A program made the translations under genes and the position numbers. Under the pieces are notes generated by a model that saw only the letters and a program-made list of their open reading frames with translations, did not search any database and was not told the origin of the DNA. A stretch of 63,961 nucleotides of DNA, the filler included, from Choristocarpus tenellus KU-1152 (Eukaryota; Protista; Phaeophyceae), in the NCBI GenBank assembly GCA_964200185.2. It is 14 parts of 14 records of this genome, joined end to end, with 100 filler letters (N's around TTAATTAATTAA, not from the genome) between each part and the next. Parts side by side here need not be neighbours in the genome. Positions count along the whole stretch, not along the records: positions 16,812 to 19,739 come from CAXNAD020023591.1; 13 more parts are not named here. One strand, 5' to 3'. Shown here piece by piece: positions 1-61,338 of this stretch. The stretch's first letter is position 1, and each line of letters starts with the position of its first letter.

Positions 1-1098
1 GGGGGGGGGGGGCGGGACTGACGCGGGGGGGGGGGGGGGAGGGGGGGGGGGGGAGGGGGGGCCAGCCACTACGTGGCTTTGCCCTCCTGAGCATCATGCA
101 CCTTATGTGATGTGATCAGAAGTTAACCATTGCCACAAGACAAATTGCACCCTTTTTCTATATCCCCTGCCCCTGTCCCTCCAGATATCCACATGCAACC
201 CAACTTGGGCATCTTGAATTTAATGCAGGAAGTAGGATGTTGACATATGTTTTGCAAGTTGAATTTGACAGTTGCACCTCTCTTTTAGAGTACTTACTCT
301 TTCGATTTTTCCAACCACTCGCAGGCATTTCTGACTGTCTGGGCCCTGTACAGACGCTTTGTGCTGGGAGCTGTAGAGGTGCAAAAGGAGAAGGCATTAA
401 AGAGAGGGCAGGTGCTGTAATGCCACCAAATAACAGAGTGCAGTATAAAACTGAACTGTGTGTTTTTTCTTGGCATGATGAAACCAACTCAATGTTTTGC
501 GCCGATAATTTTCCAAGGATATGTTTGGTCTCAATGTGGTGACACTACAAGTAAACGGCCCTTGTGACGACTGCTTCCTATACTGATTTTTTATCCCTTC
601 TTGATAAGGTAGAGGTAGGTAAATGCATGTCAACAGGAATAGATAGGGGGGGGGGGGACTTGATCATGCTCAATTATTAGCAACATTTGGAGTGCGAGTT
701 GAGATTTAAAATGTCCCCGCACAACCCACTATGTAACTGTTCTGAGCTTTGTGAGGTGTTAGTACTATTATTATTGTTAATTGATACTGCTGCAAAGCGA
801 TGCAGAGCTTCTGGTCGAGTCACCTCGACCGTGTGGCAGGCATGTGATTTCGCACGCTTCTTGACGCACGATTTGAGCGTCTCTGATAATTTTTTGATGT
901 TGATGCCTGGCTAATAACGGGTTGGCTGGCTTCCCATTGTTCTTCAGCCTGCTGTTTGGCGTTTCATGCCTTTGCACATTGTATGTTGTGACGGCCTACT
1001 TTTGAGGACTCCATTTTTCTTTCTTGTAGCTGTTGTGTGAATTGACATATTTTCGAGTATGATTTTTTTTTTGATGGAGTCAGAGTGTGTTAGGGTTA

Positions 1099-1338
1099 GG
1101 GTAGAGCCGCATCCGTTTGGCGGCCAAAATCCAATGTTGAAAGTTTGATGTAATTTTGGCTGTCATGTTTGTTAGGAAGTGTCTATATCCTTGTTCCAGA
1201 CACAACTTTTTGTAACATGCACATTTTACCTACTCCAAAACATTTCGTAGTAGTTAAAATGTCATAAAAGACTGTGGGAATCCAAGCCCCAAACGGACAA
1301 ACAGGGCAAAACTTCTACCCTCTTAGATACTTTCACTC
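1099..1338 (+). mobile_element. Sola2-like MITE copy, 5' TIR truncated
   Basis: Matches the ~255-bp family (GGGTAGAGCCGC...CCAATGTTG...GGACAAACAGGGCAAAAC...TACCCTCTTAGATACTTTCACTC). The left terminus is replaced by TTAGGGTTAGGG. Confidence 0.85.
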
Positions 1339-2249
1339 ATGAACTCATCTGATTACTGGTTAAAAATGGAGGCTGTTCCCCGCTTGAGGTTTGTTGGTTC
1401 GAATCCCATCCACACTAGGAAGTCTGGTTTTGACTATCCAACTTCCACGTGGTGAGTTGTATAGACTGTACGCCCGTAGTATCCTATCTGTTACCATGCT
1501 GTAACAACGTTGAACCGATACTGATGTGGTAATAATGTGGTTAATGATGTGGTTAATGATGTGGTAAGGGTTCATTGCCGAATGATGTCAAGGTGGGCCA
1601 ATTAGAAGATTCTAGGCCAGAGGAGGAGGAGGAGTGACAGGTGGTGGGATGGCTGAATCGTATGGACGATTAGAAGCAGGGCATGCACGGAGGCAGCATA
1701 GTTTTACAGTACAACAATTACAGTTACGGTTGTTGTGAGAAGTAATGCAATGTGAAGGGCCTCTGACCACGGGTTGGGATGATTTTAAAATAGGAATGAT
1801 GAGTATAGTAGCTATGCGACCGAAATTTACACCCAGGATATGAATTGAGGAATGTGATTTGTCGTGCTCCAAAATTAGAAGGTATAGTGTGCAACACTGG
1901 CGGGTAGTAATCACTAAGAAAATAATTGTCTCAATTTCCGATTTCTATCACCACGATTTGATGGAATTGTAGTAATTCAATTCAAGTGCTACAATTCACT
2001 GTATTTCTCAACCAGTGTGTATTGTATTTTGCCTTCTTTGAATTACCTTTTTGAACAGAGGTCTGGGACCCCTGAGTCTAACGTGAATATTTTATAGCTT
2101 TCATATTAATACCAATAATTCGCAAAATATGCCCGTTGTTCTTTGATCAAGGCTTGAGGTGTATGCGTGTGGTGCCTTTTTGGCCAACATTGTACAACCA
2201 CCTACTGTAGTGTGTATGACCGAATGCTTGGAGTACTCAGGGCACCCCT

Positions 2250-7943: not shown

Positions 7944-8201
7944 GAGGCAAAGTATCCTAGAGGGTAGAGCTGTGTCCATTTGGGGGCCAAAATCCAATGT
8001 TGCTATTTTGATGTAAATTTGGCTATCATGTTTGCTAGGAAGTGTCAATATCCTTGTTGCGGACACACCTTTTCATAACATACACAATTTACCTACTCCG
8101 AAACATTTCGGAGTAGGAAAATGTTAAAAAAAACACATGGGAAACCAAGGTTCAAACGGACAAATAGGGCAAAACTCGCACCCTCTAAGATACTTTCATT
8201 C
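7944..8201 (+). mobile_element. Sola2-like MITE copy
   Basis: GAGGCAAAGTATCCTAGAGGGTA ... CACCCTCTAAGATACTTTCATTC, 258 bp. TSD not intact. Confidence 0.9.
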
Positions 8202-8460: not shown

Positions 8461-9216
8461 TAGGGTTAAAGTTGTTGGCATGAAGGAAGGGAAAAGGGTT
8501 AGGTTTTGCTATCGGGTTAATGTAGTAGTGTTTCTTTGATATCATGTGTCGACGGATTCTGGATGTGTTACAAAAAGAGTTATTGATCAAGGTCTGTTAT
8601 CGTACGTTTCGCTGGGAGTACCTTAAGATATACTTCCCTTGATTCGGGGCTAGGGTTAGTGGGTTGTTTAAATCCTGATGAGCTAGGGTTGGTTTGGCGT
8701 AAGTAAGGTCGATGACGGCACTGGTACGTAATTCAGGTGAGACGCTTGTCGATTTTAGGTTGCCACGGGATGCAGATGGGCTCAGTGTAAGTGTTAGGGT
8801 AAGTTTATGGTTTAGTGTCGGTGTGCGGGGGTAGCGATCCAGGTCATTCGTCGAGTTCATGGCATGTGTCTGGGGTAGGCTCAGGGTTGGTGTTGCGCTT
8901 AGGAGCATCGGATGTGGACTTCGGGATATGTTCCTCCAAGATTTGAAGGAGGACGAGATCGGCCCTCGTTTGCCGACACTTGGACAAAGCATGAGATAGT
9001 GCATAGAGTATTGAGAAGCAGGGGGGAGCTAGGTAGTAGGGTTCAGGGAATAATTAGCGGTAGGTAAGAAGGCAACGTATCCATTGCAGGCCTTGGCGAA
9101 TTGATCGGAAGCTTAGTGGAAAAGATGGAGAAGAGTTGTTTATAAATTGTTTTATAGTTGTAGTAGTCTGAACCTTGGATTGGACAAGCTCTTGCTAAAC
9201 AAATAAGAACACAGGT

Positions 9217-9466
9217 GAGTGAAAATATCTTAGAGGGCACCCTGTTCGTCCATTTGAGGTTTAGTTTCCCACGGGTTCTAATGACATCTTAACTACTCCG
9301 AAATGTTCTGGAGTGGGTAAGCTGTATACGTTATGAAAATCGGTGTCCAGAACCAAGGATATTGACACTTTCAAATAAACACAATAGTCAAAATTTCATC
9401 GAAATCACAACATTGGATTTTGGCCCCCAAATGGACGCGGCTCTACCCTCTAAGATTCTTCGACTC
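9217..9466 (-). mobile_element. Sola2-like MITE copy with TSD AGGT
   Basis: GAGTGAAAATATCTTAGAGGG ... TACCCTCTAAGATTCTTCGACTC, flanked by AGGT at 9213-9216 and 9467-9470. Confidence 0.92.
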
Positions 9467-9855
9467 AGGTCTAATCCTCAAGATGAGTATCATATATGAT
9501 ACACTGACTCCTCTGACTGGTCGCAGTGTATCCGATACCATTGTATAAGTATCATGGGTGTTTCCTTCAGGGCTTACATTGTCAGCATCTGGGGTGGGTG
9601 GGGTGATTACGGTAGGATGGAGGCTTTGGATGATGGGCTGACGACAGGGTATGGTGTGCGCGGTGCTCTGACAAGGAAGTAAAGAGATTACCCGCTTAGA
9701 AATCGCCACAGATGCATATGATATTTCGACGTCCGGTCGTTGTTGGGTTAGGTCCAACGTGTAATGCGGTCGGGGTAAGCGACGGTGGCACTGCTGGTGG
9801 CAGACGGTTTATGAACAGTTTCGATCAAACAAATTATAATGCTGGAGTAGTGTTT

Positions 9856-10284
9856 TTGGTGATACCACTATTGACAGCTGGTGTGTACACGGTTCTAATG
9901 GTGATAAAAACAGGGGTATGCAACTTCAAAATGCTGGTGTTACCACCATTGACAGCTGGTGTGTACACGCTTCTAATGGTGATAAGCACAGGGCATTGAA
10001 TTTGAAAATGTTGGTGGCACCACTACTGACAGCTTGTGTATACACGATTCTAATGGTGATAAATACAGGGGCATCGGGTTTGAAAATGTTGGTGTTACAA
10101 CGATTGACAGCTGTTGTGTACACGGTTCTAATGGTAATAAAAACAGGGGTAAACAACTTCAAAATGTCGGTGATACCACTATTGACAGCTGGTGTGTGCA
10201 CGGTTCTAATGGTAAGAAATAAAGGGCATCGAATTTGAAAATGTTGGTGTTACCGTGATTGACAGCTGTTGTGTACACGGTTCT
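9856..10284. repeat. 78-bp minisatellite, ~5.5 units
   Basis: Consensus GGTGTGTACACGGTTCTAATGGTGATAAATACAGGGGCATCGAATTTGAAAATGTTGGTGATACCACTATTGACAGCT. Confidence 0.95.
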
Positions 10285-10544: not shown

Positions 10545-11400
10545 TCTACACGGTTCTAATGGTGATAAATACAGGGACATCAAATTTGAAAATGTTGGTG
10601 ATAGCACTACTGACAGGTGGTGTGTACACGGTTCTAGTGGTGATAAATACAGGGGCATCGAATTTGAAAATGTTGGTGATACCACTATCGCCAGCTGGTG
10701 TTTACAAGGTTCTAATGGTAATAAATACCGGATATCGAATTTGAAATTGGTGATACCACTATCGACAGCTGGTGTGTACAAGGTTCTAATGGTAATAAAT
10801 ACAGGGGCATCGAATTTGAAAATGTTGGTGATACCGCTATCGACAGCTGGTGTGTACACGGTTCTAATGGTAAGAAATACAGGACATCGAATATTAAAAT
10901 TTTGGTGATACCTCTATCGACAGCTGGTGTGTACACGGTTGTAATGGTGATAAATACAGGGGCATCGAATTTGAAAAAGTTTGTGATACCACTACTGGCA
11001 GCTGTTGTGTACAAAGTTCTAATGGTAATAAATACAGGACATCGAAATTGAAATTGTTGGTGATAGCACCGCTGACAGCTGGTGTGTACACAGTTCTACT
11101 GGTTATAAATACAGGGCATCGAATTTGAAATTGTTGGTGATAACACTACCATCGACAGCTGGTGTGTACACGGTTGTAGTGGTGATAAATACAGGGGCAT
11201 TGGGTTTCGAAAAGTTCATGTTACCACTATTGACTGGTGGTGTGTACACGATTGTAATGGTGATAAAGGCAGGGCATGGAATTTGAAAATGTTGGTGATA
11301 CCACTACTGACAGGTGATGTGTACAAGGTTCTTATGGTAATAAATACAGGGCATCGGATTTGAAATCGTTGGCGACACCACTATTGACAGCTGCTTGGTA
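10545..11400. repeat. 78-bp minisatellite, ~11 units
   Basis: Same consensus as 9856-10284, with occasional 1-3 bp indels. Confidence 0.95.
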
Positions 11401-11828
11401 CAAACTCCGAATGTAAATGAACACATAAACATGTGTAGAGACATGTGGTTGTGTTCACGACCGAGAAAAGCACAATGAGGGGTGGATACGTTGGAAACTC
11501 TTCAACACCGCACACATAACCAATCTTGGCCTAATGTGAGCATTTGCTCCCTGAATTTCAGACCACCATGACATGGAGGCCTCTTAGCGCACACCAAAAT
11601 ATTTGTCACCAGTGTTGACACAGATCTGTGCTATATACGGCGGGATGGACAGACCGGCATGTGTAGGGGTTACACCGATTTTGACACGAAATTGCTTTCA
11701 TCCAGAATTGTATCTGGAGGTTCCGAATGATATTTACACACAGGTGGCAACATAGCAGTGGTGATCGAAATTGGTATGGTTGTAGACCTGAAAACCTTTC
11801 TACATAACGCAATGGGGTCTTGATCGCT

Positions 11829-12086
11829 GAGCTAAAGTATCTTAGAGGGTAGAGCCGTGTCCATTTGGGGGTCAAACTCCGATGTTACGATTTCGATATA
11901 ATTTTGACTGTTGTATTTGTTGGCAAGTGTCAATATCCACATTCTGGACACACCTTTTCGTTACGTACACATTTTACCTACTCGAAATATTTCGGAGTAG
12001 GTAAAATGTCATGAAAAAACCATGGGAAGTCAAGCCCGAAATGGACAAACAGGGCAAACATCGTACCCCCTAAGACACTTTCACTC
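11829..12086 (+). mobile_element. Sola2-like MITE copy with TSD CGCT
   Basis: GAGCTAAAGTATCTTAGAGGGTA ... TACCCCCTAAGACACTTTCACTC, 258 bp, flanked by CGCT at 11825-11828 and 12087-12090. Confidence 0.93.
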
Positions 12087-14756: not shown

Positions 14757-15760
14757 TGTGGAGGATACGATACGAATTACTGATATTTTTAACCGAAAAT
14801 ATTCGGAATGATAGTTGATATCTTAGCGGACTACTTACTGACAATCATAGATTGATGTTCGTATATGTTCGAGATGGTCTATATTGTGATGGAGGTTCAG
14901 AAACATTTTTTGTACTTCTTGCTAGTGATTCTTTCAAGAAACATGTGCTAAACCAACTCCCACCATACAAAATAGTATCACTATTCTCCTTTCAATCATG
15001 TGATCACATTCATTCAGGAAAGGGGGATCGGGTGACCGTCCCATCTCTTTTCTCTTCTTCCATACTCACCCAAATAGCAGCCTAAATCTGCACAGGTGAT
15101 GAGCCTCAACTGTATGGAGAACGATATGAAGAAGTTTCCCATCTTGACTGCAGCTTCAGGTCGGTCAGTGGGGACCTGCACAACATGGAGACTATCTGTG
15201 ATGGGTTACACCAGTGGAATGTGTCTGTGCGATATTCTGCGGCGAACATACAAGGTCCCTGAAGAGCCAAAGCATTTAAAAGGGTGTGAGTTTTGCCCTG
15301 TTTGTCTATTCGGGGCTTGACTTCCCAAGGCATTTCTGTGCAAACATTTCAAAATTCGATTTAGGTAAAATTTGTATGACTATGAAAGGTGTATCCAGAG
15401 GAAGGATATTGATAGTCGCTAATGAACACTATAGCCAAAATTCATCAAAATCGAAACATTGGATTTATGACCCTGAACAGACGGGACCCCACCCTTACCC
15501 TCTTCTTGCTGTCTGAACTCACGGACACACCAACAGAATAGGAACAAAGTACACACGAGAACTATGAGAAGAACAACAGACTTTTGTGGTTTCTGCTGGT
15601 CCAAGCGGCAAGAGGGTCGGTCCACGGCAGCAATCATAGAGAGATTCGAAAACGCCAAGAATCCAAACGGCGGGGGGAGCATTGATGGAATTAGAAAGAT
15701 TCTATGGAACGGATAGTACAGATTTCGTAGTCCAACTTGGAAGAACATTGACAGAATACA
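14757..15760 (+). mobile_element. Decayed Ty1/copia 5' LTR (14757-15094), PBS and gag pseudogene
   Basis: The LTR runs TGTG...CTGCACA and is followed by GGTGATGAGCC (degenerate half-tRNAiMet PBS). Gag-like translation MSLNCMENDMKKF...WRLSVMGY...YKVPE/LTDTPTE*...NYEKNNRLLWFLLVQAARG...IIERFENAKNPNGG..LMELERFYG. Homologous to 43629-44227. Confidence 0.75.
15264..15513 (-). mobile_element. Diverged Sola2-like MITE inserted in copia gag, TSD TGAA
   Basis: Internal sequence matches the family in reverse orientation. TGAA lies at 15260-15263 and 15514-15517, and excision restores the gag frame (KVPE|LTDTP). Confidence 0.85.
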
Positions 15761-15990
15761 AGGAGCTGAAGCGAGCAATTAGGGATCAAGGACGTCATGC
15801 TGAACATTATCCACAACTGGTCACAAGGCCCGATATGAGGTACGAGGGTCTGAAGCGGGCAACAAGGCATCAAAGACGTCATGCTGAACATTCTCCTCAG
15901 CTGGTCACAAGGCCCGATATAAGTTACGAAGGTCAGAAGCGGGTAATAAGGCATCAAGGACCCCATACTGAACATTTTCACACAACTCCC
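15757..15990. repeat. 84-bp tandem repeat, ~2.7 units
   Basis: Unit TACGAGGGTCTGAAGCGGGCAA..AGGCATCAAGGACGTCATGCTGAACATT.TCC.CA.CTGGTCACAAGGCCCGATAT, giving 28-aa periodicity in ORF 15682-15993. Confidence 0.85.
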
Positions 15991-16571
15991 TAACACCCAA
16001 TACAACTTGTAAGGACCTGAAGCGGTCTATTTGTTAATACATAGATTACTTGTCTTTTTTGAACTTGAGACGATACAGTTCGAAATGTCCGAGGGCATAA
16101 AAATAAATGCACTATTACCAGTTCATCATACTGACTGTTGATTCGCACATCGGTACTGGTCGTTACTCACATTTCCAACATAGCATCAACAACTATTGTT
16201 AGAACATGATATAGGAAGAAGTATGGAACAAGTCCACATCAATCAAACATACAAGTATAGTATATGCTGTATCAATTGTAGATAGTAGATGTTGATTCAA
16301 GTTTGTTTCTTTATTTCTCTTTTAATCTTCACATCAGAACCACCAATTATGTCTCATATGTTTATTCTTTTTTTTCTGCTTACTCTTTCTTTCACTTACA
16401 GTTCGAGTTCACTCTACACTGTAAAAAAATAAAGCTACAGTACCTACCCAGATTTTATGCCAACTATTATGAACCAAATCAAAAAAATATACAATTTGTT
16501 TTGCTCACGAATTCTGGATTATTATTATTATTTTGCACATTCCTATTTTCTTATTCCTCTATCCTCTATTC

Positions 16572-16711
16572 CCCATTTGATGACCAACCAGTGCGAATGC
16601 CCTTCGTCAGTGGTTGCCAGCAATCCCCCCATTTGGTGACCAATCGGTGCAAATACCCTTTGTCACTGATTGCCAGCCATCCCCCCATTTGATGACCAAC
16701 CAGTGCAATGC
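16572..16711. repeat. ~56-bp tandem repeat running into contig end
   Basis: CCCCATTTGATGACCAACCAGTGC.AAT.CCCTT.GTCA.TG.TTGCCAGC.ATCC, ~2.5 units. Confidence 0.85.
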
Positions 16712-17294
16712 NNNNNNNNNNNNNNNNNNNNNNNNNNNNNNNNNNNNNNNNNNNNTTAATTAATTAANNNNNNNNNNNNNNNNNNNNNNNNNNNNNNNNN
16801 NNNNNNNNNNNCAAAAATCGAGACATGAAAAAGTTGCCCCCAAATGGACAGCCGCCACCCCCTCCCAGATAATTTGAGTCTCCTGTTGTAGTAGCGCACG
16901 TATGTATATATGGACGGGAGATGTGTTGGAGGTAGATATAAGGTACGGGGGATGGAATCGTAGAGGGATCGTATGCCAGCAGCGGATCTCTAATTCTGTA
17001 GGTATTTACGTGTGGTAACTGCAGCAGCAGCGCAGGGACGGCCGGATGAGATGATATTGATTGAAGCACAAACCAACATATCACACATGTACATACACAC
17101 ATATGTAAAACGTAACTCCACGCTGGAGGGATCTCTGACTTTGTACATCAGACATCTTGGTGTGGTAACTGCAAACTGAATGTGGCGAGTACGGTCGGAT
17201 GACATTGTTCTGAGATAGGACTACTGTTCAATCATCAAGCAGGGGGAAAAATATACTAGGTACAAATAACACTGTGTATTTACATCAAACCCAC

Positions 17295-17770
17295 CTCTCC
17301 ATGCCGGATGATGCTCTTGCGTTAGGTGTACCTTTGCAAGCATCGATGACAAGATTGGATATTCCGAACGATGCCTTGAAAAACTGCGTACAAACGGGAA
17401 TGCCGGCCGCGAGCATAGATCCGCCTCCAGGTCCCAACTTAATGACAGATACACGGTCACCAATGAAGTGCTTGTGATCGCGGCGGTTCTCACATGCCCG
17501 GATTATGTCCTGCTCTTTGGCCAATGTGCGTGCAAGGAAGGACTCGCTATCTGCTGCGAACTTCTTCACACAGGCTAAGCGCTTGCAGCAGTTACCCTGT
17601 TCGTTGACCGGGATTGGTTGAGCCCATTCTCGGCGAAGCTTGGCGCCGATCGCTGGAGCGTCATTGGTAGAAAGCTCCAGCGCATCATTGTTGGCGGGCT
17701 GATGAGGGGGCAACACAGGGGGCGGCACAGGTGACAAAAGCCACCCCCTTGCTGTGGGAGCAACTTTCAT
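17295..17770 (-). CDS. First exon of a Sola-type DDD transposase (N-terminal Cys-rich domain)
   Basis: ATG in ACACCATG context. Translation contains CCKRLACVKKF ... EQ ... FI ... GIPVCTQFFKASFGIS, the CC-x4-C / VC..F....GIS signature I associate with Sola transposase N-termini. Ends at donor AG|GTGGGT. The catalytic core is not in this contig. Confidence 0.65.
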
Positions 17771-17851
17771 GGTGTTTTCGGGCAACAGGCGGTCTTGGGC
17801 AGTGAGAAGGTCTAGGAGTGAATTGAATTCGAAGCCGGGCATATGAACCAT

Positions 17852-18625
17852 GTTTGAGCTTTGGGCGATCCGTGGGACCACCCTGAGATCCATGATCCGA
17901 AAAAAACGTACATTAGGTTTTTTAGTAATTGTATATCCGATTATATCCGTAATTTCAAGAATTAAAATACAAAGAACATACTTAATTGATCTTGTACGTT
18001 TCCAATGTTCCGAAACCAAAAGGTAAAAAAAGAATGACACCCTCTAATTATTTTAAGTACAAAATCCTATATTGTTCGACATTTGCATTTTTAAAGATAA
18101 GAATTTCGACAAAAAGCGGTTTTTGAGATTTGGGCGATCTGTCGGACCACCCGAAACCCTTGAACCGCCAAAACACGTGCATGAGGGTTTTTAGAAATGG
18201 TAAATTCGGTTTTACCCATTCTTACAATTAAAAAAAATACAAAGCACGTACTTTATTGGTCTCATACGTTTCTAATGTTCCGAAACTAAAAGTTCACTTT
18301 CAACTGGTACCCGATAATTTTAAAAAATACTAAAACCGCTTTTTGAGTTTCGGGCGATCCGTCGGACCACCCAAAACCCTTGAGCCGCCAAAACACGTGC
18401 ATTAGGGTTTTTACGAAATGATAAAAATATTCTATTCTTCATATCAACAAATACAAATACAAACCACATACTTCACTGATGTAATACGTTTGAAACGTAC
18501 CAAAACGAAAAGGTCACAAAAAACTGACACTCTCTATCTGTTCTAAATATGGAATCGTATACTGTTCGACATTCGTATTGTTTAGAACACAATTATCAAC
18601 GGAAAGAGAAATCTGAGTTCTTTGG
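17852..18625. repeat. Array of three diverged ~220-280-bp units between the transposase and ParB-like genes
   Basis: TTTGAG.TT.GGGCGATC.GT.GGACCACCC recurs at ~17853, ~18122 and ~18342, each followed by AAATACAAA..ACATACTT.ATTGAT...ACGTTT..AA.GT.CC.AAAC.AAAAGG. Confidence 0.85.
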
Positions 18626-18756
18626 GGACCGACCGACCAGATGAAATAAGGCAGCACCTCCCAGCCCTCACTCCTCATATCCATTCCTTCCCTTCCGCAC
18701 ATACCACCAGCAGCTCTTACTTATTCTATCCCAGTCACACCTTCCCAATCTTCGCT

Positions 18757-19662
18757 ATGTCCAACATTCGCTCAACAACGACCCCCCTGCCCGCCGATGG
18801 TGCTGCCCACGGATCAAGAGCATCGTGCAGCAATGCTAAGGGCATGTCCTTGCTCCTTGAACATCACTACCTCGGCACGTACAAGATGAAACTCGGCAAC
18901 ATCACATGCACGGAGATGGTGCGTCCCCTGAGCGAGCGTGGCCTTGCGCACGTCAGCAAGTCTATCCGTGAAAAAGGCTGGCTCGAGCAGTTTGCTCCAT
19001 CTATTGTCATCCAACGAGACTGCTTAGGCAATGGAGACCAGCTCACCGCCGACACTGCGCTTGCCGTTCAAGGACGAACACTGGACAGAAACCATAAAAT
19101 AACGGTGTTGAAGAGAGAGTTTGATCCCGAACACGCTTTCATGATGCGGGTCTACATGGAGTTCAACCAAGCAGAAGAGAGGCTAATTGCCAACGGTGGG
19201 TTATGGAGTTTTGTCATTGATTAATGATCGCCTGACTCTTCTGATCAACTAAGCAACTAAGTAAGTTGAGTGTGGTCGTTGTTCCATGACCGCCTGATGA
19301 CTCTTCTGATCTACCAAGTTGTTGCCGTGTTTACTTTGTTTGGTTCATCGTCAGTCAGCCTGTTGTTGATTTTTTCGTTGTTGATCTTTTTTATCCCTCG
19401 AGGTTGTGGTCTTTCTGTCGGCAGCAACATGTTGCTCACTGCTGCCTGCTGCGTGTGTCCCGCGACCGCCTCCCACCTACCCCTTGCCCCGTTCACCCAC
19501 TGTACCGCCACGCTTATAGCATTCAACGACGCGACCGAGAGTGTGGTTGAACGCACACTGTATGATAAAGTATGTTTTCAGCATGAACTCGAAGAAGCTA
19601 TCAAGCGACAGACAAAGAAGAAAGAAGTGTCACTAGCAGAGATCCACAAAATGTACAAAAAG
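18757..19662 (+). CDS. ParB/Sulfiredoxin-like domain protein (exons 18757-19195 and 19520-19662; continues past contig end); possibly a decayed copy
   Basis: VRPLSERGLAHVSKSIREKGWLEQFAPSIVI ... RTLDRNHKITVLK ... EERLIAN|AFND matches the ParB N-terminal pattern R......L..L..SI...G....P.V ... IDGNHR..A. The GT-AG intron keeps the frame (G|CA). Confidence 0.65.
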
Positions 19663-20138
19663 GTGAGGGAGTTGTCAACATTGGTGGGATGGTGGCGCTC
19701 TACTCCTCCTCTTGTTGGGTTACAGCTGTATCTCTGTATNNNNNNNNNNNNNNNNNNNNNNNNNNNNNNNNNNNNNNNNNNNNTTAATTAATTAANNNNN
19801 NNNNNNNNNNNNNNNNNNNNNNNNNNNNNNNNNNNNNNNACCTTCAAGTGCAATCCAGTTTATGTCAATAATTTGTACTATAGTTCGATCACCACATCTT
19901 CGGTAATCATCTCACACACACATGCATGCAAAATTTCCATCACTATTCATTTTTCATCGTCAATGAGAGGAGACAAAGTAAATCCAACACCCCATGGGGT
20001 ACACACCACTACCTTCACCCAAAAATTCCGATGTTTGTGTTGTCTAGGAAAATTACCCCCCCTCCCCCTCCCCTTTATTTTCCCAAGATGAATGAACGTA
20101 ACACACGTAGGAACCCTGCCTGACAGCAATATCCACAC

Positions 20139-23555: not shown

Positions 23556-26221
23556 AACATCTTCGCCAAGATAATAAAGAAGGATGAGGATGCAGAGATC
23601 GTGTTCGAAGACGAGATGGTGGTGGCTTTCAAGGATATACACCCAGCATCCACAGTGCACCTCCTCATATGCCCGAAGAATCGTGCTGTCCGTAGCATCG
23701 CCTTCCTCACTGTAGAACATGCAGACCTCCTGGAGCACATGGTGAGAAGCGATGAAACATATTTGTCAAGTTTCATATCCTCCTTATTGGAAGCCAAGAT
23801 CTGCGCCATGCGTCTTTTTTTCTGGCGCTCTTTGAAGATGGGGCAAGGGTTGTAGGTACGAAACGAGGGTAAGATGCAACCAGGAGTGGAGACCTTTCTT
23901 TGAAGACTGTTGGTTGAAAATGTGCTCTGCCAACAGTAGTTGCAAAAATGAGCCTTTGATATGCTACGGTACAAAGATTTACGTTTGCTAAATCAATTTC
24001 TGGATATGATTAACCTCCACGTCGTTTCAGAGGGCTTCATAGTATGAAGATTCGACATAGTAAATTGACCTTCAGGGGGATAAGTGATGGACCGTAGCAA
24101 CGGATCCCAGTTGAATAACAAACTAAAGCAGCTCGGAAACAACACTAAGGTGATGAACTTCTGACTCACTTACCTAGTGTTACCCCGAGAGACGAAGCAG
24201 TATCCGAGTTGCCTCGGAACGGATGCATGGTTGATTGTTCATCTCGCCACTCCTAATATTTCAGGCGATAGCCCTCACCAACAAAATAATTCCCCACTGT
24301 CCCTCAGATCACAGTTGGTAAATCTCTTCTCAAGCAAAAGGCCGGACTGACAGAAAACCAACAGGTGAGCATGGGATCGTGAAGTTGAGTTGGATGGAGT
24401 GGAGTGCAGTAAGGTATGGCACACTCTATCCCTATTATAGATAGAACTTCTGGCTCGTGCTGGTGAGGGCACCCTAGTGAGGAGTATCAATTCTAATGCC
24501 CACCCCAACTCTGCTAGCTCAACTCGTGTTTCAGGTGTATATAGTGCGATGAATTCCCTTCGTATGTTTATATGGTGGATATGAGGAATAATGTGAAATC
24601 CTTCATGGATCCAAGCACTGAAGCACAGTTTCTTTTTGCATTTCTGTTTTTTTGGGCGGGGGGGGGGGCTGTAATAATGCAGGTGGCGCAGGGTGTCATG
24701 GGCTTCCATGCGCCACCAGTACTTCAGGTGCCCCACCTTCACATGCATGCCATTGCTCCAAAAGGAAAGATGAGCTTCTGGAGCAAGCTGCACTTCATGC
24801 AAGGTTCTTTTTGGTAAGATTTTTTTTCATCTGCTCATATAGAGTTATAACGACTCAAGAGCAGATTATCAGTCTAATGTCCTAATATTTTACCGTTAAC
24901 TTGGCAGTGACTTTGTTGTGAGTTCTTACTCCTTGAAGTTTGTCTGGAGCGTGGCGGAACAATGACAGTCAACCGATTTTTACTACATCAAGAATACCTG
25001 CCTTTTCTTGAGAAGATAACATGCAACGTGCCTCAGAGGATGATTCAAAGCTAGTGTTTCCGTAGGTCGATTCATTTCTACGATGTCGGTTCCCTTTTGA
25101 TTTTTTTTTTCTTCAATATATGCCCTTTTATCCTTTAGCGCAGATATCAGAGGTGCGGACGCCCCAATAGGAAATCTCAATGTTTAATGTGCAGAATTGT
25201 GTTGACCTTTTTCCTTTCGCCACTGGTCGCAAGATAAGACTCCGAACCCCCCCGACTGTGACACCCCTTACTCTCTGACATACATGTGGGCAATCAGGGG
25301 AAGGTCGTCACTTTCTAATTATGATGGTTTTGCCAGGGACTTAACCGCACAGTAGAACATTGATACCATACCGTACATCCAGTTCCAGAATCTCTCTATA
25401 AAAACAGAGGACCTTTTTTTTTTTTTAAGCCCAGAGATGTTTTGTACAGCTAATCCGTATCACATCCTTGCAGCACGTCTTGATCATGGCAAAGTACTAT
25501 ATGGAAGAACCTGAAGTAGGAAAGGAGCCATTGTTGTTAACTCACCGTCACCGGCGTGTGGCCATTGCATGAGAATCCTGTTCTCCTTATTGCCCCTATT
25601 GTTGGAGGGAAACGCCTCCATCAGCAGTCTAAGGTCCATCCATACCTAACAAGAGTAAAATTTTTCCCTTTTTTTCGTTTTTTCTGATTGGACGAAAAAG
25701 GTCTGGGGATGCCGCACTGTCGTGATCTGTTTTCATGTTCTGGTTCTCTGCTGGCATTGTGTTCAGGTGTTCCTTGGGAATTTATTGTCTCCCATGTCAT
25801 TATTGTCATGAGATGTCTGAATGTCATCAAAATATTTTTTCTCTTCCTTCTCTACTTCTTTTAGTGTTCCAATCGGTGGAATTTTTTTATTCTTGGGAAA
25901 AGATGTGAGGTGTGACATCGGTGTTGACTGACAACAAACTATTTTTTGTCATTTTTTTGTCATGAGGTTTGAAAAACTATTTTTTTTCTTTTGAGTGGAA
26001 AAAAAAACCATTGCAATGTGTACTCTTGTTATTATCCTGAAACGACCTAAGCTAACATTAAAAAAAAATGTGGTGTGTCCTCTTTAACCCCCCCCCCCCC
26101 ACCCCCCCTTCTCTCCCGCTCCCCACCCAACATCTAACATTTGTGTTGTCCCAGGTTCCAATCTGCGGATAAGGTACTTGGGCGTCTTAAAAGTCAGCAA
26201 ACTGCTCAGATCACAATCTGA
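23556..26221 (+). CDS. HINT3: Histidine-triad nucleotide-binding protein, HINT3-like (exons 23556-23741, 24308-24364, 24683/24692-24813, 26155-26221; first exon not located)
   Basis: Spliced product NIFAKIIKKDEDAEIVFEDEMVVAFKDIHPASTVHLLICPK...LLEHM|ITVGKSLL...|GFHAPPVLQVPHLHMHAIAP...GSFW|FQSADKVLGRL...*. Contains the HxHxH triad and the HINT3-type GFHxPP motif. Confidence 0.92.
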
Positions 26222-26602: not shown

Positions 26603-27849
26603 CCTTTTCTTATTCTGTTCTTTTTTTGTGGTGTGTGTAGCTGAGGTGGAGGGTACGGCATTTATTACTACAGGAGGAATGCATTAACCAGGCTGAGTTT
26701 TGTGCCTGATTGGTGCGTGTGGGGAGGGTTTTGTGCCATGCCGGGAGCTCTACTGTGGACGCCTCCTCCCCTTATCTTGTTGCACGAAGATGATGCAAGA
26801 GGTGCTTGTCCTGGTGCGGGCGGGGCAATGATGCAGTTTTGTTGATGTGGCGCTTGGTGTAGTACTCTCCGTTTCCCTTGGTGTGAACTGAGCATTGAGA
26901 GGGGGGAGCTGTGGACTGCAATAGTGTTTGACGCCTTTGTCTTTTGAGTACTGTAGTTTATTTGCAAAACAGGAACCTATCATCAAACTTGGAGAGGTTT
27001 TTAGGGAGGGAAACAGTCCTGTTCTGCTTTCCCTCCGTGTAGGCCTTTTTTTTCAAGGTGTATGTACATTTACAGAGTGGGTGTCCATGCTGCTATCAAG
27101 ATAGGAACACATGGGGACGTCGGTGTATTGCCCTGCATGGATGATGGTCCCTGCCACCCAGACATCCCTTCCTGATGCATAGTACATCCTGTGTGGTCTG
27201 ATATCTCCAATGAGAGGAAGATCAAAAAGTTTTGCCCAAGATTGTGATGATGATGATGGAGTGTTGATGTGCAGGGTGTTGGAAGAGGAACCTGGTATGA
27301 TAAGTGTAAATACTGGCATTTTGTTGTTGGGAAAGGTGAAGTGCAAGTTTCATTTCTGGATGGAGGCCAGGACTTTGTGGTAGTGACTTGCGCATCTGCA
27401 GAGTACAGACCACTTACATGGAAGGTCGTCATTGGTATATGTTCTTGAATAATATATTTGAGACTGTGCAAAATGTTGGTCGTTTTTTGTGAGGAGAGCA
27501 TTTGGCACGTGTCAGTCTTCTACCAAGTGGATTTTCCTTTTTTATTATACAGTCCTGTGCGCCCTCTCGGCGGTGGGCCTTACCTGCTGCTCCATAACCT
27601 GTTGGATTACTGCTGTGAGGAGACAGCAGGAAAGACCTATTTATATAAGGGATCTTACCAAAGAACATTTATTTGAACACCGGTCAACTGTGCTTGCTGG
27701 TTTGTTTTTTCAGATTCCGTAAACAGAGTCTGTGCTAAGGGATACTTGCTACGTACGTACAATGTATGGACACAAAACCAAAAAACAGAAAGCAAGGCAA
27801 GCTCTCTCTCCCTTGTCAACAATTCCAGTTGTGTCTATCATCACTACAT

Positions 27850-28107
27850 GAGCCGAAGTATCTTAAAAGGTAGAGCCGCGTCTATTTGGGGGCCAAAGTC
27901 CAATGTTGCAATTTTGATGTTATTTTGGCTATTGTGTGTGTTAGGAAGTGTCAATATCGATGTTCTGGACACACCTTTTAATAACATGTACATTTTACCT
28001 ACTCTGAAACAATTTGGAGAGGGAAAATGTTATAAAACGCCCATGGGAAGCCAAGCCCCAAATGGACAAACAGGGCAAAACTCGTACCCTCTAAGATACT
28101 TTCAATC
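27850..28107 (+). mobile_element. Sola2-like MITE copy
   Basis: GAGCCGAAGTATCTTAAAAGGTA ... TACCCTCTAAGATACTTTCAATC, 258 bp. Confidence 0.92.
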
Positions 28108-31366: not shown

Positions 31367-33165
31367 TAGGACATACTTAATTGATCTTGTACGTTTCCAA
31401 TTTTCCGAAACCAAAGGGTAAAAAAAAACTGGCACCCTACAATTTTTTAAGTACAAAATCTTAAATTGTTGGACATTTGTATTCTTAATAATACTAGAGA
31501 CGACAAAAAGGGGTTCTTGAGTTTCGGTGATTTCTCTTTCTGTTGACAATTGTGTTTTATGAAAAAAGAAATATCGAACAGCATACGATTACATATTGAA
31601 AAGAGACAGAGAGTAACAGTTTTCTGTGACCTTCTCGTTTCGTATGTTTCCAAACATATTGGATCAATGAAGTATGTGGTTTGTATTTGTATTTGTTAAT
31701 GTAAAGATTAGAATATCATTATTATTTCGTAATAACCCTAACGCACGTGTTTTGACTGTTCAATAGTTTTATTGATCCAATTGTGTTACAAAAAATACGA
31801 TTATCGAACAGCATACGATTTCATGTTGAAAAGAGAGAGAGTAACTGTTTTTTTGTGACCTTTTCGTTTCGTACGTTTGAAACGTATTGGATCAATGAAG
31901 GATGTGGTTTGTATTTGCATTTGCTGATGTAAAGATTAGAATATCATTATTATTTCGTAAAAACCCTAATGCATGTGTTTTGGCTCTTGCTGGGTTTAGA
32001 ACATCCAAATGGATCTTGAAAACTATAGATCCGCTTTTTTTTTGGTCTCTTGTATTTTGAAAAATACTAAGGTCGCCATTGAGACCCATAAAGTGCATGC
32101 TTGGTATTTATAAAAACGGTAAGAACGGTTATTACTGGATTTACTATTTCAAAAAATCCTCATACACGTGTTTTGGGTGTCCTTGAGTTTTGGAGAACGA
32201 AACGGACCTTCAATAATCAAGGAACCCCTTTTTGTCGTCTGCAGAGCTTTTAAGAATGCATATGTCCAACAATTTAAGATTTTGTATTAAAAAAAATAAG
32301 AGGTTGCCACTTTTTTTTTACCTTTTGGTTTCTGAACATTGGAAACGTACAAGATCAATGAAGTATGTGCTTTGTATTATAAAAAATTGTAAGTACGGGT
32401 CTAATCTGATTTACAACTTCCGAAATTTTTTTTGTAAGATTTTCAGGATCATGGATCTCAGGACGGGACCAACGGATTGCCCGGAGCTCAGACAAAGTTG
32501 GTTTCGGAACATTGGAAACGTACAATATCAATTAAGTATGTGATTTGTATTTTTTAAAATTGTAAGTACGGATATTGTGCAATATAGGCTGATAGTCTAT
32601 ATGGTTTATAGGTGTTTAGTCACTATCAGATAACAAGAATGTTGACTAAGTGGAACAAGCGTCACCGACTTTTTTGCGTGTGCTTAGAGTAATAAGTTCG
32701 AATCTCAGATAATTGAGTTCTTATTACTTTGTTGCTTGATAGAAATAGAGGGATGGAGGGTTACTGACATAGTACTAGCTACACAGGATAAAGTGACATA
32801 TTTAGATGTAACAGCAGGATACGTTTTGATGTGTTGTCAGCTGACTGACGTGTCAGCTGACATATGCAATAAACAATAATAAGAGAGAGCACCCTCCCAC
32901 CACCGAGGGCTGTGCTCACTCCGCTAATAAATACACCCATACCGCAAAAAGCAAAATACTCTACTTGAGTAGCTCTCTTTTGCGAAGATATAATCGGATT
33001 TACAACTTCCGAAAACCGTAATCCACGGATTTTCAGGATCATGGATCTCAGGGTGGTCCCACGGATCGCCCGGAGCTCAAACAAAGTTCATACGCCCGCC
33101 TTCGAATGTAATCACTCCTAGACCTTCTCACTGCCCAAGACCGCCTGTTGCCCGAAAACACCATG
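31367..33165. mobile_element. Second, rearranged copy of the Sola/ParB intergenic repeat array, with the transposase leader truncated at the ATG
   Basis: 33030-33165 is the reverse complement of ~17768-17905 (GGATCATGGATCTCAGGGTGGTCCCACGGATCGCCC...CTCCTAGACCTTCTCACTGCCCAAGACCGCCTGTTGCCCGAAAACACCATG). Several array units lie upstream; the first (31367-31530) is inverted relative to the rest. Confidence 0.85.
32576..32986 (+). mobile_element. Solo LTR with 5-bp TSD GATAT
   Basis: TGTGCAATATAGG ... TTTGCGAA, flanked by GATAT at 32571-32575 and 32987-32991. The start resembles the copia LTR at 43629, and an empty site is visible at ~32385-32420. Confidence 0.8.
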
Positions 33166-33399
33166 ACAAGTCCAACAACTTGCCCGAGAAAATAGATAAA
33201 TGCATATCGGCGTATCTGACATGGTGTGGGGGGGGGCAGATCACAACAAACCATATCTCAGGCATGACCATGAAGAAACTGGGATGATGCAAGATCAAGC
33301 CAATAATATCAGCACTTCGTTGATAGTAGAAATAGGAGTGAATTGAAAAAATATGAAAAGAATGGTTTAAAATGCTTTAGAGCCAAACCTGGGTACCTC

Positions 33400-40716: not shown

Positions 40717-41588
40717 CAGTGAGTGTATCAATATAAGAGAAAACGGGATATAAGAGAGGGTAAATTGTGTTGTCGCAACTTCTCAGGCTATAAGAGAGGT
40801 TTTGGCGTTTTCTTGCCAATTTTCTCTTATACCGAGCAAACTCACCAATTTTTTTTTTCACCACTTTACGAGTTTCCCCAAAAGCCATGTCTGTAGTTAA
40901 GCAAATTATAACGAAGTAAGGCACAAAGCTGCTCAAGACCAGCAGTACACATTATAGCAATCTTCTCTCTCAGTACTGTACATTACAGTGCATACAGCAT
41001 ATTACATTAAGTTTAGACTGCACCGTACAGATATAACGATGCCCTGCGCAGCGGGATCCGGCTGCAGCATACAGGGTAATACTCCTCGTCCGTCTCATTA
41101 CACATCCCGTAAGTGTCACGTTTGTAATGGCTATCTTCATGACATTTGCGGCGTGTTGTGGATTTTTTTGGCGTGAGTGAAATGAAACACGTGTGCAAGT
41201 TGTGCGTGAGCCCCGCCAATCCAAGCGCAAGGCTTCGAGTCCTCCAGCCAGTGATAACATGGCGTCGAAAGGCCACGATAACCAGAACAAGGGCAAGGGG
41301 AAGGTGCTGCCAAATAACTCTACGGAGAAAGCCTCGTCCTACAAGCCTCGCAATGCTGACAACCGTAAACGCTTGAGCTTTGCAGAGAAGGTGGAAGCGT
41401 TTACACTCCTGAAGATCATGCCGGGATCTGTGGTTGCTCAAAAGCTTGGAATTGGTCATAGCACCCTCTACAAGTCGAAGGAGGCAACAACCATCATGGA
41501 GGAAGCGCAGACTCTGAAGCCTGGCGCCAAGTCCACAAGGGGTGCCAAAAGATGTCGAGGCGTTTCAGCACGTGGATTAAAAGTCTGA
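40717..41588 (+). mobile_element. Truncated pogo/Tigger element: 5' TIR plus frameshifted zinc-finger and HTH-psq transposase N-terminus
   Basis: TA|CAGTGAGTGTATCAATATAAGAGA terminus. RKRLSFAEKVEAFTLLK...SVVAQKLGIGHSTLYK is the CENP-B/Tigger N-terminal HTH. No DDE core present. Confidence 0.8.
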
Positions 41589-50542: not shown

Positions 50543-50806
50543 GAGTGAAAGTATTTTGGAGGGTAGGAATCTTGCCCTGTTTGTCTGTTTGGGGCTTTTG
50601 GCTCCCCATGTTTTTTCTTTTTTTTAAACGACATTTTCCTACTCCAAAATATTTCGAAGTAGGTAAAATGTATGCGTCCGGAACATGGATGTCGACCATT
50701 CCCAACATATACGATAGCCAAAATTAAGCGAAAATCGCGACATTGGATTTTGACCCCCAAAACGGACGCAGCCCTACTACCCCCTGACCCTAAGATGCTT
50801 TGAATC
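50543..50806 (-). mobile_element. Sola2-like MITE copy
   Basis: GAGTGAAAGTATTTTGGAGGGTA ... CCCTAAGATGCTTTGAATC; internal sequence matches the family. Confidence 0.88.
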
Positions 50807-57411: not shown

Positions 57412-57929
57412 GAGACAAAGTATCTTAGAGGGTAGGGCCGCGTCCATTTGGGGGTCAAAATCCAATGTTTCGAGAGTGAAAGTATCTTAGTGGGTACGAG
57501 TTTTGCCCTGTTTGTCCATTTGGGGCTTGGCTTCCCATATTTTTTTTAATGACATTTTCCTACTACAAAATATTTCGTAGGTAAATTTATACGTTATGAA
57601 AATGTGTGTCCGGAACAAGGATGTTGACGCTTTCTAACAAACTTAATGGCCTAAATTACACCCCCAAATCACACAATGGGCTTTGGTCCTCAAATGGACG
57701 CGGCCCTACCCTCTAAGATACTTTGGCTCTCGATTTTGATGTAATTTTGGCCATCATGTTTGTTAGGAAGTGTCAATATCCTTGTTCCAGACACACCTTT
57801 TCATAAGGTATACATTTTACCTACTAAAAAAAAAATGGAAGTAGGAAAACGTCATAAAAAAAACATGGGAAGCCTAGCCCCAAATGGATAAACAGGGCAA
57901 AATTTGTACCCTCTAAGATACTTTCACTC
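57412..57929 (+). mobile_element. Sola2-like MITE (outer copy) interrupted by a second copy
   Basis: 57412-57473 plus 57734-57929 reconstitute one full element, GAGACAAAGTATCTTAGAGGGTA...TACCCTCTAAGATACTTTCACTC. Confidence 0.92.
57474..57729 (-). mobile_element. Sola2-like MITE (inner, inverted copy) with TSD TCGA
   Basis: GAGTGAAAGTATCTTAG...CTAAGATACTTTGGCTC, flanked by TCGA at 57470-57473 and 57730-57733. Confidence 0.94.
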
Positions 57930-61037: not shown

Positions 61038-61338
61038 ATTATATCAAAGTCATTCACTATATGAAATTTATTTATTATATCAAAGTCATTCACTATATGA
61101 AATTTATTTATTATATCAAAGTCATTCACTATATGAAAGTTATTTATTATATCAAAGTCATTCACTATATGAAAGTTATTTATTATATCAAAGTCATTCA
61201 CTATATGAAAGTTATTTATTATATCAAAGTCATTCACTATATGAAAGTTATTTATTATATCAAAGTCATTCACTATATGAAAGTTATTTATTATATCAAA
61301 GTCATTCACTATATGAAAGTTATTTATTATATCAAAGT
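61038..61338. repeat. 36-bp minisatellite, ~8 units, in an EXS-gene intron
   Basis: Unit ATCAAAGTCATTCACTAT-ATGAAAGTTATTTATTAT, nearly perfect. Confidence 0.97.

What the first reader, a model, noticed from the sequence alone, without database searches (positions are those of the whole stretch)
17295..19662. Sola-type transposase head-to-head with a spliced ParB/Sulfiredoxin-like gene: candidate two-gene eukaryotic transposon
Seen: two intron-containing genes diverge from a ~1-kb AT-rich spacer. One has CCKRLAC...VCTQFFKASFGIS; the other has R......L..VSKSIREKGW...P.IV...LDRNHK...LIANAFND. Known: Sola elements are usually described as single-transposase DDD transposons. ParB/Srx domains are nucleotide-binding modules (CTPase/ATPase or nuclease-like) typical of prokaryotic partition, phage and DNA-modification systems, where they are often fused to an HTH or a methyltransferase. 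Inference: the ParB-like gene is an accessory gene carried inside the transposon, possibly acting on the repeat array between the genes or heading a larger DNA-modifying protein. I know of no description of such a pairing, but I cannot search for one.
Basis: partly seen in the sequence, partly recalled or inferred. Interest (0 to 1): 0.78.

Follow-up and report, generated by a model that had tools for sequence, protein, structure and literature searches.

The report
Brown-algal Sola transposon with ParB gene
This is a real but partial, likely decayed, piece of a many-copy brown-seaweed jumping gene in which a likely Sola-type transposase sits head-to-head with a spliced bacterial-style ParB-fold gene that likely binds the element's own DNA, a pairing already published for the seaweed Ectocarpus.

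Summary
On one 2,928-bp contig (16812-19739) two genes start 986 bp apart on opposite strands, around three 220-270-bp repeats.

Gene B folds as ParB/Sulfiredoxin (pLDDT 87.8; all 30 listed Foldseek rows; VIA Z 8.8). Homologs and one joined public contig support its 19196-19519 intron. Gene A's only exon here is 59% identical to a 976-aa Undaria protein with a DUF7869 core and three candidate catalytic Asp. In Undaria the homologs of A and B have consecutive gene numbers on one scaffold. The stretch is multi-copy in three runs of one study.

It is not new. PMC12477816 describes the 21.5-kb Sola1-1_Ec32 with an opposite-strand ParB plus amino-methyltransferase gene, and this scan has noted the same design before in plant and animal DNA.

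Not shown: element ends, target duplication, the catalytic and methylase exons (off the contig), and homology to Sola1-1_Ec32 itself. This copy reads DRNHK where the family reads DGNHR. Two distant homologs carry a methylase-like tail with degenerate motifs. Palindromes in the spacer are not above chance. Verdict: new member of a known kind, low interest.

The parts
17295..17770 (-). Gene A exon 1 (159 codons): Cys-rich N-terminal region of a likely Sola-type DDD transposase; GT donor follows at 17294-17293; later exons are off the contig
   Evidence: 59% identity over aa 1-162 of the 976-aa Undaria protein P0173, E 3e-53; P0173 has DUF7869, E 3.5e-33; nine other homologous exon proteins at 56-62%; 5 X3 contigs leave the window at 17294 into a stop-free frame
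16879..17294 (-). Start of the first intron of gene A (inferred); still multi-copy
   Evidence: covered by run contigs; no match to P0173
17771..18756 (.). 986-bp divergent spacer, AT-rich core, three degenerate direct repeats (about 17840-18108, 18109-18328, 18329-18640); likely holds both promoters (inferred)
   Evidence: a second, rearranged copy lies at 31368-33171
18757..19195 (+). Gene B exon 1 (146 codons): ParB/Sulfiredoxin-fold domain; this copy reads DRNHK where the family reads DGNHR
   Evidence: 77% to P0002, 60% to P0003; model pLDDT 87.8; Foldseek and VIA hits; motif counts
19196..19519 (+). 324-nt GT..AG intron of gene B
   Evidence: sequence; homolog continuity; joint 19194>19519 in X3
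19520..19662 (+). Gene B exon 2 (helical region after the ParB domain), ending at a phase-0 GT donor; rest of the gene is off the contig
   Evidence: matches P0002 from aa 147; matches of P0005, P0022 and P0031 end at 19665-19668

Best explanation
This contig is the central, head-to-head part of a multi-copy brown-algal element that is likely a large Sola-type cut-and-paste transposon, carrying a ParB-fold accessory gene that likely binds the element's own DNA. Shown: the two divergent first exons, the ParB/Srx fold, the intron of gene B, many copies, and adjacent homologs in Undaria. Inferred: the spacer is a two-way promoter. The transposase (DDD core in exons beyond the contig) would cut at terminal inverted repeats and make 4-bp duplications. 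The accessory protein (nucleotide-binding ParB domain, then a helical, probably HTH-bearing part, then in at least some relatives a methylase-like tail) would load on repeats in the element, such as the three spacer units, and keep it expressed or protected, by marking it or by occupying it. This copy is likely decayed, because it alone has lost two near-invariant ParB motif residues.
For: Fold: all 30 listed Foldseek rows are ParB/Srx-fold proteins (ParB, PadC, Noc, KorB, Srx, SbnI, serine kinase and two unnamed), best E 2e-3; VIA Z 8.8 (PadC, rmsd 2.5, 91 aligned) and 8.4 (Srx); 10 of 79 family members hit PHROG ParB-like phrog_1033, best E 1.4e-6. Transposase; Asp at 328, 418 and 460 of P0173 in motifs I recall as Sola-like. 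Linkage: Undaria HiC_scaffold_26 g11746 (P0173) and g11747 (P0003). Multi-copy: 30 of 30 bins covered in each of 3 runs, most contigs 80-95% alike. Methylase tail: P0153+P0038 C-termini against 31 YhdJ-like methylases, hhalign probability 91%, E 1e-6, score 48.7 versus at most 18.9 in 30 controls. Same layout in print: PMC12477816.
Against: No terminus or target duplication is visible on a 2.9-kb contig. No run contig bridges both genes (longest listed piece 418 bp), and the three runs come from one study. Undaria linkage rests on gene numbers only; strand and distance were not seen. No Foldseek row reaches E 0.001, and the window exons have no Pfam, PHROG or NCBIfam hit. The two nearest long models (P0002 525 aa, P0003 565 aa) end without a methylase region; the homologs that have one are only about 25% identical to them. 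An HMMER profile of the same methylases did not detect the tail, and its AlphaFold model failed (pLDDT 35). Spacer palindromes: 3 observed, shuffle mean 1.75, 50 of 200 shuffles reach 3.
Confidence: 0.8

Rival explanations
1. The ParB gene is a separately mobile cassette or a different element that sits next to a Sola transposase here and in Undaria but outside shared termini.
For: ParB-type accessory genes move between transposon superfamilies in red algae (10.1101/2025.02.11.637652, passages). The family is very diverse (146 clusters at 50% identity) while only 5 homolog clusters of gene A exon 1 were found. No bridging contig.
Against: Coverage runs through the whole spacer with no pile of loose ends between the genes among the rows shown; the same two families are neighbours in Undaria; the published Sola1-1_Ec32 has both inside one element.
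Confidence: 0.12
2. The two genes are domesticated, single-locus host genes derived from a transposon.
For: Both first exons are open, with canonical introns, and one run shows the spliced form.
Against: Thousands of divergent run contigs lie on the stretch; a rearranged non-coding copy of the spacer lies in the same window; this copy alone lacks the motif Gly and Arg.
Confidence: 0.04
3. The region is an endogenous giant-virus (phaeovirus-like) segment or bacterial contamination.
For: ParB-like proteins are common in phages, and the nearest Atlas clusters for P0002 are viral.
Against: Spliceosomal introns; every named homolog listed is from a brown alga; no relative of gene B exon 1 in viral contigs and no match of P0173 in phage records.
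Confidence: 0.03

Closest known systems
Sola1-1_Ec32 of Ectocarpus (PMC12477816; passages, section 5 part 2 and supplementary table rows read; figures and FASTA supplements not seen)
   Same: Brown alga; Sola-type transposase; a ParB-like gene on the opposite strand; the paper proposes binding and marking of the element's own DNA.
   Different: [quoted passage not shown] Here only 2.9 kb is seen, with no ends and no methylase exon, and direct homology was not testable. The table calls the gene 'Ectocarpus specific', whereas the family found here also occurs in Choristocarpus, Sphacelaria, Undaria, Cladosiphon, Pylaiella and Scytosiphon. The text seen does not say whether the genes are head-to-head.
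Plavaka (EnSpm) elements of Bostrychia with PAG3 (10.1101/2025.02.11.637652; passages read, supplements not seen)
   Same: A ParB-like accessory gene beside tandem repeat arrays inside a DNA transposon, with the same self-binding proposal.
   Different: Different superfamily; PAG3 is ParB plus a 2OG oxygenase and the methylase is a separate gene (PAG2); red algae.
Bacterial ParB/Noc/PadC/KorB and Sulfiredoxin (PDB 6ryk, 6sdk, 8qa8, 6ky4)
   Same: Fold of the N-terminal domain and a conserved DGNHR motif and upstream Arg.
   Different: About 10-17% identity; no ParA partner seen in the window; spliced eukaryotic gene; nucleotide binding untested.

Membership tests
Sola superfamily | DDD transposase (PMC10741241, passage) | tested here: inconclusive
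   The catalytic part is off the contig. The 59%-identical homolog P0173 has DUF7869 and three Asp in candidate motifs. That DUF7869 and these motifs mark Sola is recalled: no paper names DUF7869 and no reference Sola protein was available.
Sola superfamily | Terminal inverted repeats | not testable with these tools
   Contig is 2,928 bp; no genome held; no metagenome contig found.
Sola superfamily | 4-bp target-site duplication (AWWT-like for Sola1; PMC3845634, passages) | not testable with these tools
   No element end is on the contig.
Sola superfamily | Dispersed multi-copy repeat | tested here: met
   30 of 30 bins covered by many divergent contigs in 3 of 3 runs, one study; second partial copy in the window.
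Sola1-1_Ec32-type element | ParB-like gene on the strand opposite the transposase | tested here: met
Sola1-1_Ec32-type element | C-terminal N4C/N6A methyltransferase domain on the ParB protein | tested here: inconclusive
   Off the contig. Present, with degenerate motifs, in two distant homologs (hhalign); absent from the two nearest long gene models, which may be truncated.
Sola1-1_Ec32-type element | Sequence homology to the Sola1-1_Ec32 consensus and its proteins | not testable with these tools
   The two FASTA supplements cannot be read here.
ParB/Sulfiredoxin superfamily | ParB/Srx fold | tested here: met
   Foldseek rows and VIA Z 8.8, rmsd 2.5, 91 aligned; the 8 rows with Z of 5 or more are ParB/Srx-fold chains.
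ParB/Sulfiredoxin superfamily | Intact nucleotide-binding motif (GxxR-type box, recalled) in this copy | tested here: not met
   Of 79 aligned rows, 75 have Gly at position 111 and 71 have Arg at 114; the window is the only row with Arg and Lys there. The family meets it; this copy does not.

The most novel reading that the evidence does not exclude
Across brown algae, from Choristocarpus to kelps, Sola elements carry a ParB protein whose nucleotide-binding motif stays conserved while its methylase is dead or lost. It would then be a nucleotide-gated DNA clamp that loads on the element's own promoter repeats and shields it from silencing, a eukaryotic transposon reuse of the bacterial ParB clamp, rather than the active methylase proposed in print.
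Probability: 0.25. Interest if true: 0.55.

Novelty: new member of a known kind. Interest (0 to 1): 0.27.

Why it matters
Modest. It suggests that the Sola plus ParB design published for Ectocarpus is spread across brown algae rather than Ectocarpus-specific, and it hints that ParB, not methylation, is the conserved activity. If a ParB clamp protects a transposon in algae that, per PMC12477816, lack canonical silencing pathways, that would be a new anti-silencing mechanism. This short, likely decayed copy is a poor handle on that question; intact long copies elsewhere are better.

Tried and rejected
No whole genome held. Pfam: nothing for either window exon 1; 1 of 79 alignment members hit GmrSD_N weakly. 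NCBIfam: 0 of 79. Profile search of PDB sequences gave only chance phycobiliprotein rows. The search for longer homologs of gene A exon 1 found none; the full-length protein came through a cluster look-up. The Atlas gave gene A only unnamed arthropod and oomycete clusters at 0.92-0.93, with a low recognition score, so weak. Metagenome scans for both genes and a viral scan confirmed no locus. No listed run is on record as RNA; this says nothing on expression, and contig depth cannot rank exons against introns. The next exon of gene A is not in the window (1 match at 3 mismatches, chance mean 0.74). Palindrome excess: none in the spacer (50 of 200 shuffles); in the second copy 5 of 200 under one setting and 33 of 200 under another, so not accepted. 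The methylase-tail model was too poor to use (pLDDT 35; Foldseek best E 0.07, mixed Rossmann folds); PDB-sequence and phage searches with it gave nothing. The tree of 28 ParB domains puts the window nearest P0009, P0002 and P0005, but no starred set holds it. The original Sola paper was not held. No complex prediction was run.

Full report
Setting. The window is 14 short contigs joined by an artificial linker, so neighbours across linkers mean nothing. The finding lies inside one contig, 16812-19739. No whole genome is held. Every named homolog listed is from a brown alga, the closest from Choristocarpus tenellus (88% over 110 aa for P0009, 77% over 146 aa for P0002). The host is therefore a brown alga; I did not identify the species.

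Observation. Gene A starts at 17770 on the minus strand and is open to a GT donor after 17295. Gene B starts at 18757 on the plus strand, has a 324-nt GT..AG intron at 19196-19519 and a second donor after 19662. The start codons are 986 bp apart. The spacer core is 33.7% GC and holds three degenerate direct repeats spaced about 270 and 220 bp. Homologs P0002 and P0003 read straight across both junctions of gene B. Of three runs laid, X3 has one contig that skips exactly the intron and X1 and X2 have none. Five X3 contigs leave the window at the gene A donor into a 30-base stretch that I read as ten codons without a stop. X3 is not on record as RNA, so these fit spliced RNA but an intron-less DNA copy is not excluded.

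Gene B. A search with P0002 returned 146 clusters at E up to 0.001. From 79 aligned exon-1 rows (80 passed my filter, of which P0135 and P0140 were left out and the window exon added) AlphaFold gave a model with pLDDT 87.8. All 30 listed Foldseek rows are ParB/Srx-fold proteins, best E 2e-3 and none at 0.001. The exhaustive aligner gave PadC Z 8.8 (rmsd 2.5, 91 aligned) and Sulfiredoxin Z 8.4. Ten of 79 members hit a PHROG ParB-like family. The Atlas structure rows for P0002 are all ParB-type clusters, two of them ParB-methylase fusions. The family keeps D110 (75 of 79), G111 (75), H113 (74), R114 (71) and R56 (71); the window is the only row with Arg at 111 and Lys at 114, and all X3 depth at 19097 shows the other base. 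This copy is therefore probably decayed.

Methylase tail. Two distant homologs, P0153 (Ectocarpus sp. CCAP 1310/34) and P0038 (Cladosiphon), continue past an acidic linker into a shared C-terminal region. Against an alignment of 31 non-redundant YhdJ-like beta-class amino-methylases (148 usable of 153 hits, then thinned), hhalign gave probability 91%, E 1e-6, score 48.7 over 55 columns; 30 shuffled or reversed controls scored at most 18.9. The aligned part is the SAM-binding end, where both lack the FxGxG pattern. By eye the DPPY position is also replaced in both (motif names recalled). Against this: HMMER with the same alignment found nothing, the structure model failed, these homologs are only about 25% identical to P0002 and P0003, and those two nearer models end without such a tail. 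Whether the window's lineage has a methylase is open.

Gene A. No longer homolog was found directly, but five exon-sized ones were, and the cluster of P0166 contains the 976-aa Undaria protein P0173. Gene A exon 1 is 59% identical to its first 162 residues and ends at the same place as eight of the nine aligned homologous exon proteins. P0173 carries DUF7869 at 389-543 (E 3.5e-33) and Asp at 328, 418 and 460 in motifs that I recall as Sola-like. I could not test Sola1 against Sola2 or confirm DUF7869 as Sola in print (0 papers).

Linkage and copy number. P0173 is Undaria HiC_scaffold_26 g11746 and the gene B homolog P0003 is g11747: adjacent models in a second species, found by two separate searches. 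Strand and distance were not seen. In three runs of one study, 6,779, 9,476 and 1,644 contigs were laid, covering 30 of 30 bins, mostly 80-95% alike; many belong to a different very abundant repeat whose end occupies 16812-16878. For X3 on 17150-19739 alone the count is 511. No piece spans both genes. A second copy of the spacer, with more units, an insertion and an inversion, lies at 31368-33171 and breaks just after the gene A start codon.

Mechanism. Most likely a large cut-and-paste element with two outward-facing genes sharing a promoter region. The transposase step is inferred from the homolog. The accessory protein likely binds repeats in its own element through the helical part after the ParB domain (only weak HTH-type hits: KorB E 0.038 in P0045, a transcriptional-regulator PHROG E 0.043 in P0002), with the ParB domain acting as a nucleotide-dependent switch or clamp as in bacterial ParB (established knowledge, untested here). 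The spacer repeats are the obvious target, but palindromes there are not above chance.

What is known. [quoted passage not shown] Its FASTA supplements, which bear directly on membership, could not be read. The Bostrychia preprint (passages) describes a ParB accessory gene beside repeat arrays in Plavaka elements. PMC4738411 (passages) notes a chlorophyte methylase family fused to a ParB-type HTH. Of the 14 papers holding ParB, methyltransferase, transposon and algae and the 15 of 23 listed for Sola, transposon and ParB, I saw no other brown-algal report in the listings. Eight earlier notes of this scan describe the same design in plant and animal DNA (unchecked AI notes, not support); none matches this sequence or genome.

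Verdict. Real feature, interpretation largely right, novelty claim wrong. New member of a known kind, filed as 'works like Sola1-1_Ec32'; strict membership awaits termini and direct sequence comparison. Interest 0.27.

Noticed in passing
window 31368-33171: Second, rearranged copy of the spacer repeats (more units, about 400-bp insertion, inverted end); it matches up to the gene A start codon and then diverges.
   Followed up: partly
window 16812-16878: End of a different, very abundant repeat, probably inserted in the first intron of gene A; hundreds of run contigs diverge behind 16862-16878; 7 matches to its end word in the window against 0.36 expected.
   Followed up: partly
window 1098-1345, 7944-8201, 9216-9470, 11828-12086, 15269-15496, 27849-28107, 50543-50777, 57474-57929: A dispersed repeat of about 260 bp, 70-84% alike, with an inverted pair at 57474-57929; MITE-like.
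   Followed up: no
window 9856-10284 and 10547-11425: 77-78-bp satellite arrays, 5.5 and about 11 copies.
   Followed up: no
window 15766-15987, 16571-16708, 61038-61338: Tandem arrays with 84-, 56- and 36-bp units, the last 8.4 copies at 99%.
   Followed up: no
P0171, P0172 versus P0173: Transposase-core fragments from Discosporangium and Ectocarpus sp. 4 are 93-94% identical to the Undaria protein over 108 and 72 aa, high for such distant orders (distance recalled): horizontal transfer, strong constraint or mixed samples.
   Followed up: no
window 41181-41588 (+): ORF with a weak HTH_23 hit (E 0.044); may be the DNA-binding start of a pogo/Tc1-type transposase (recalled).
   Followed up: no
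window 23556-23855 (-): ORF that looks by eye like a HIT-family protein exon; not tested.
   Followed up: no
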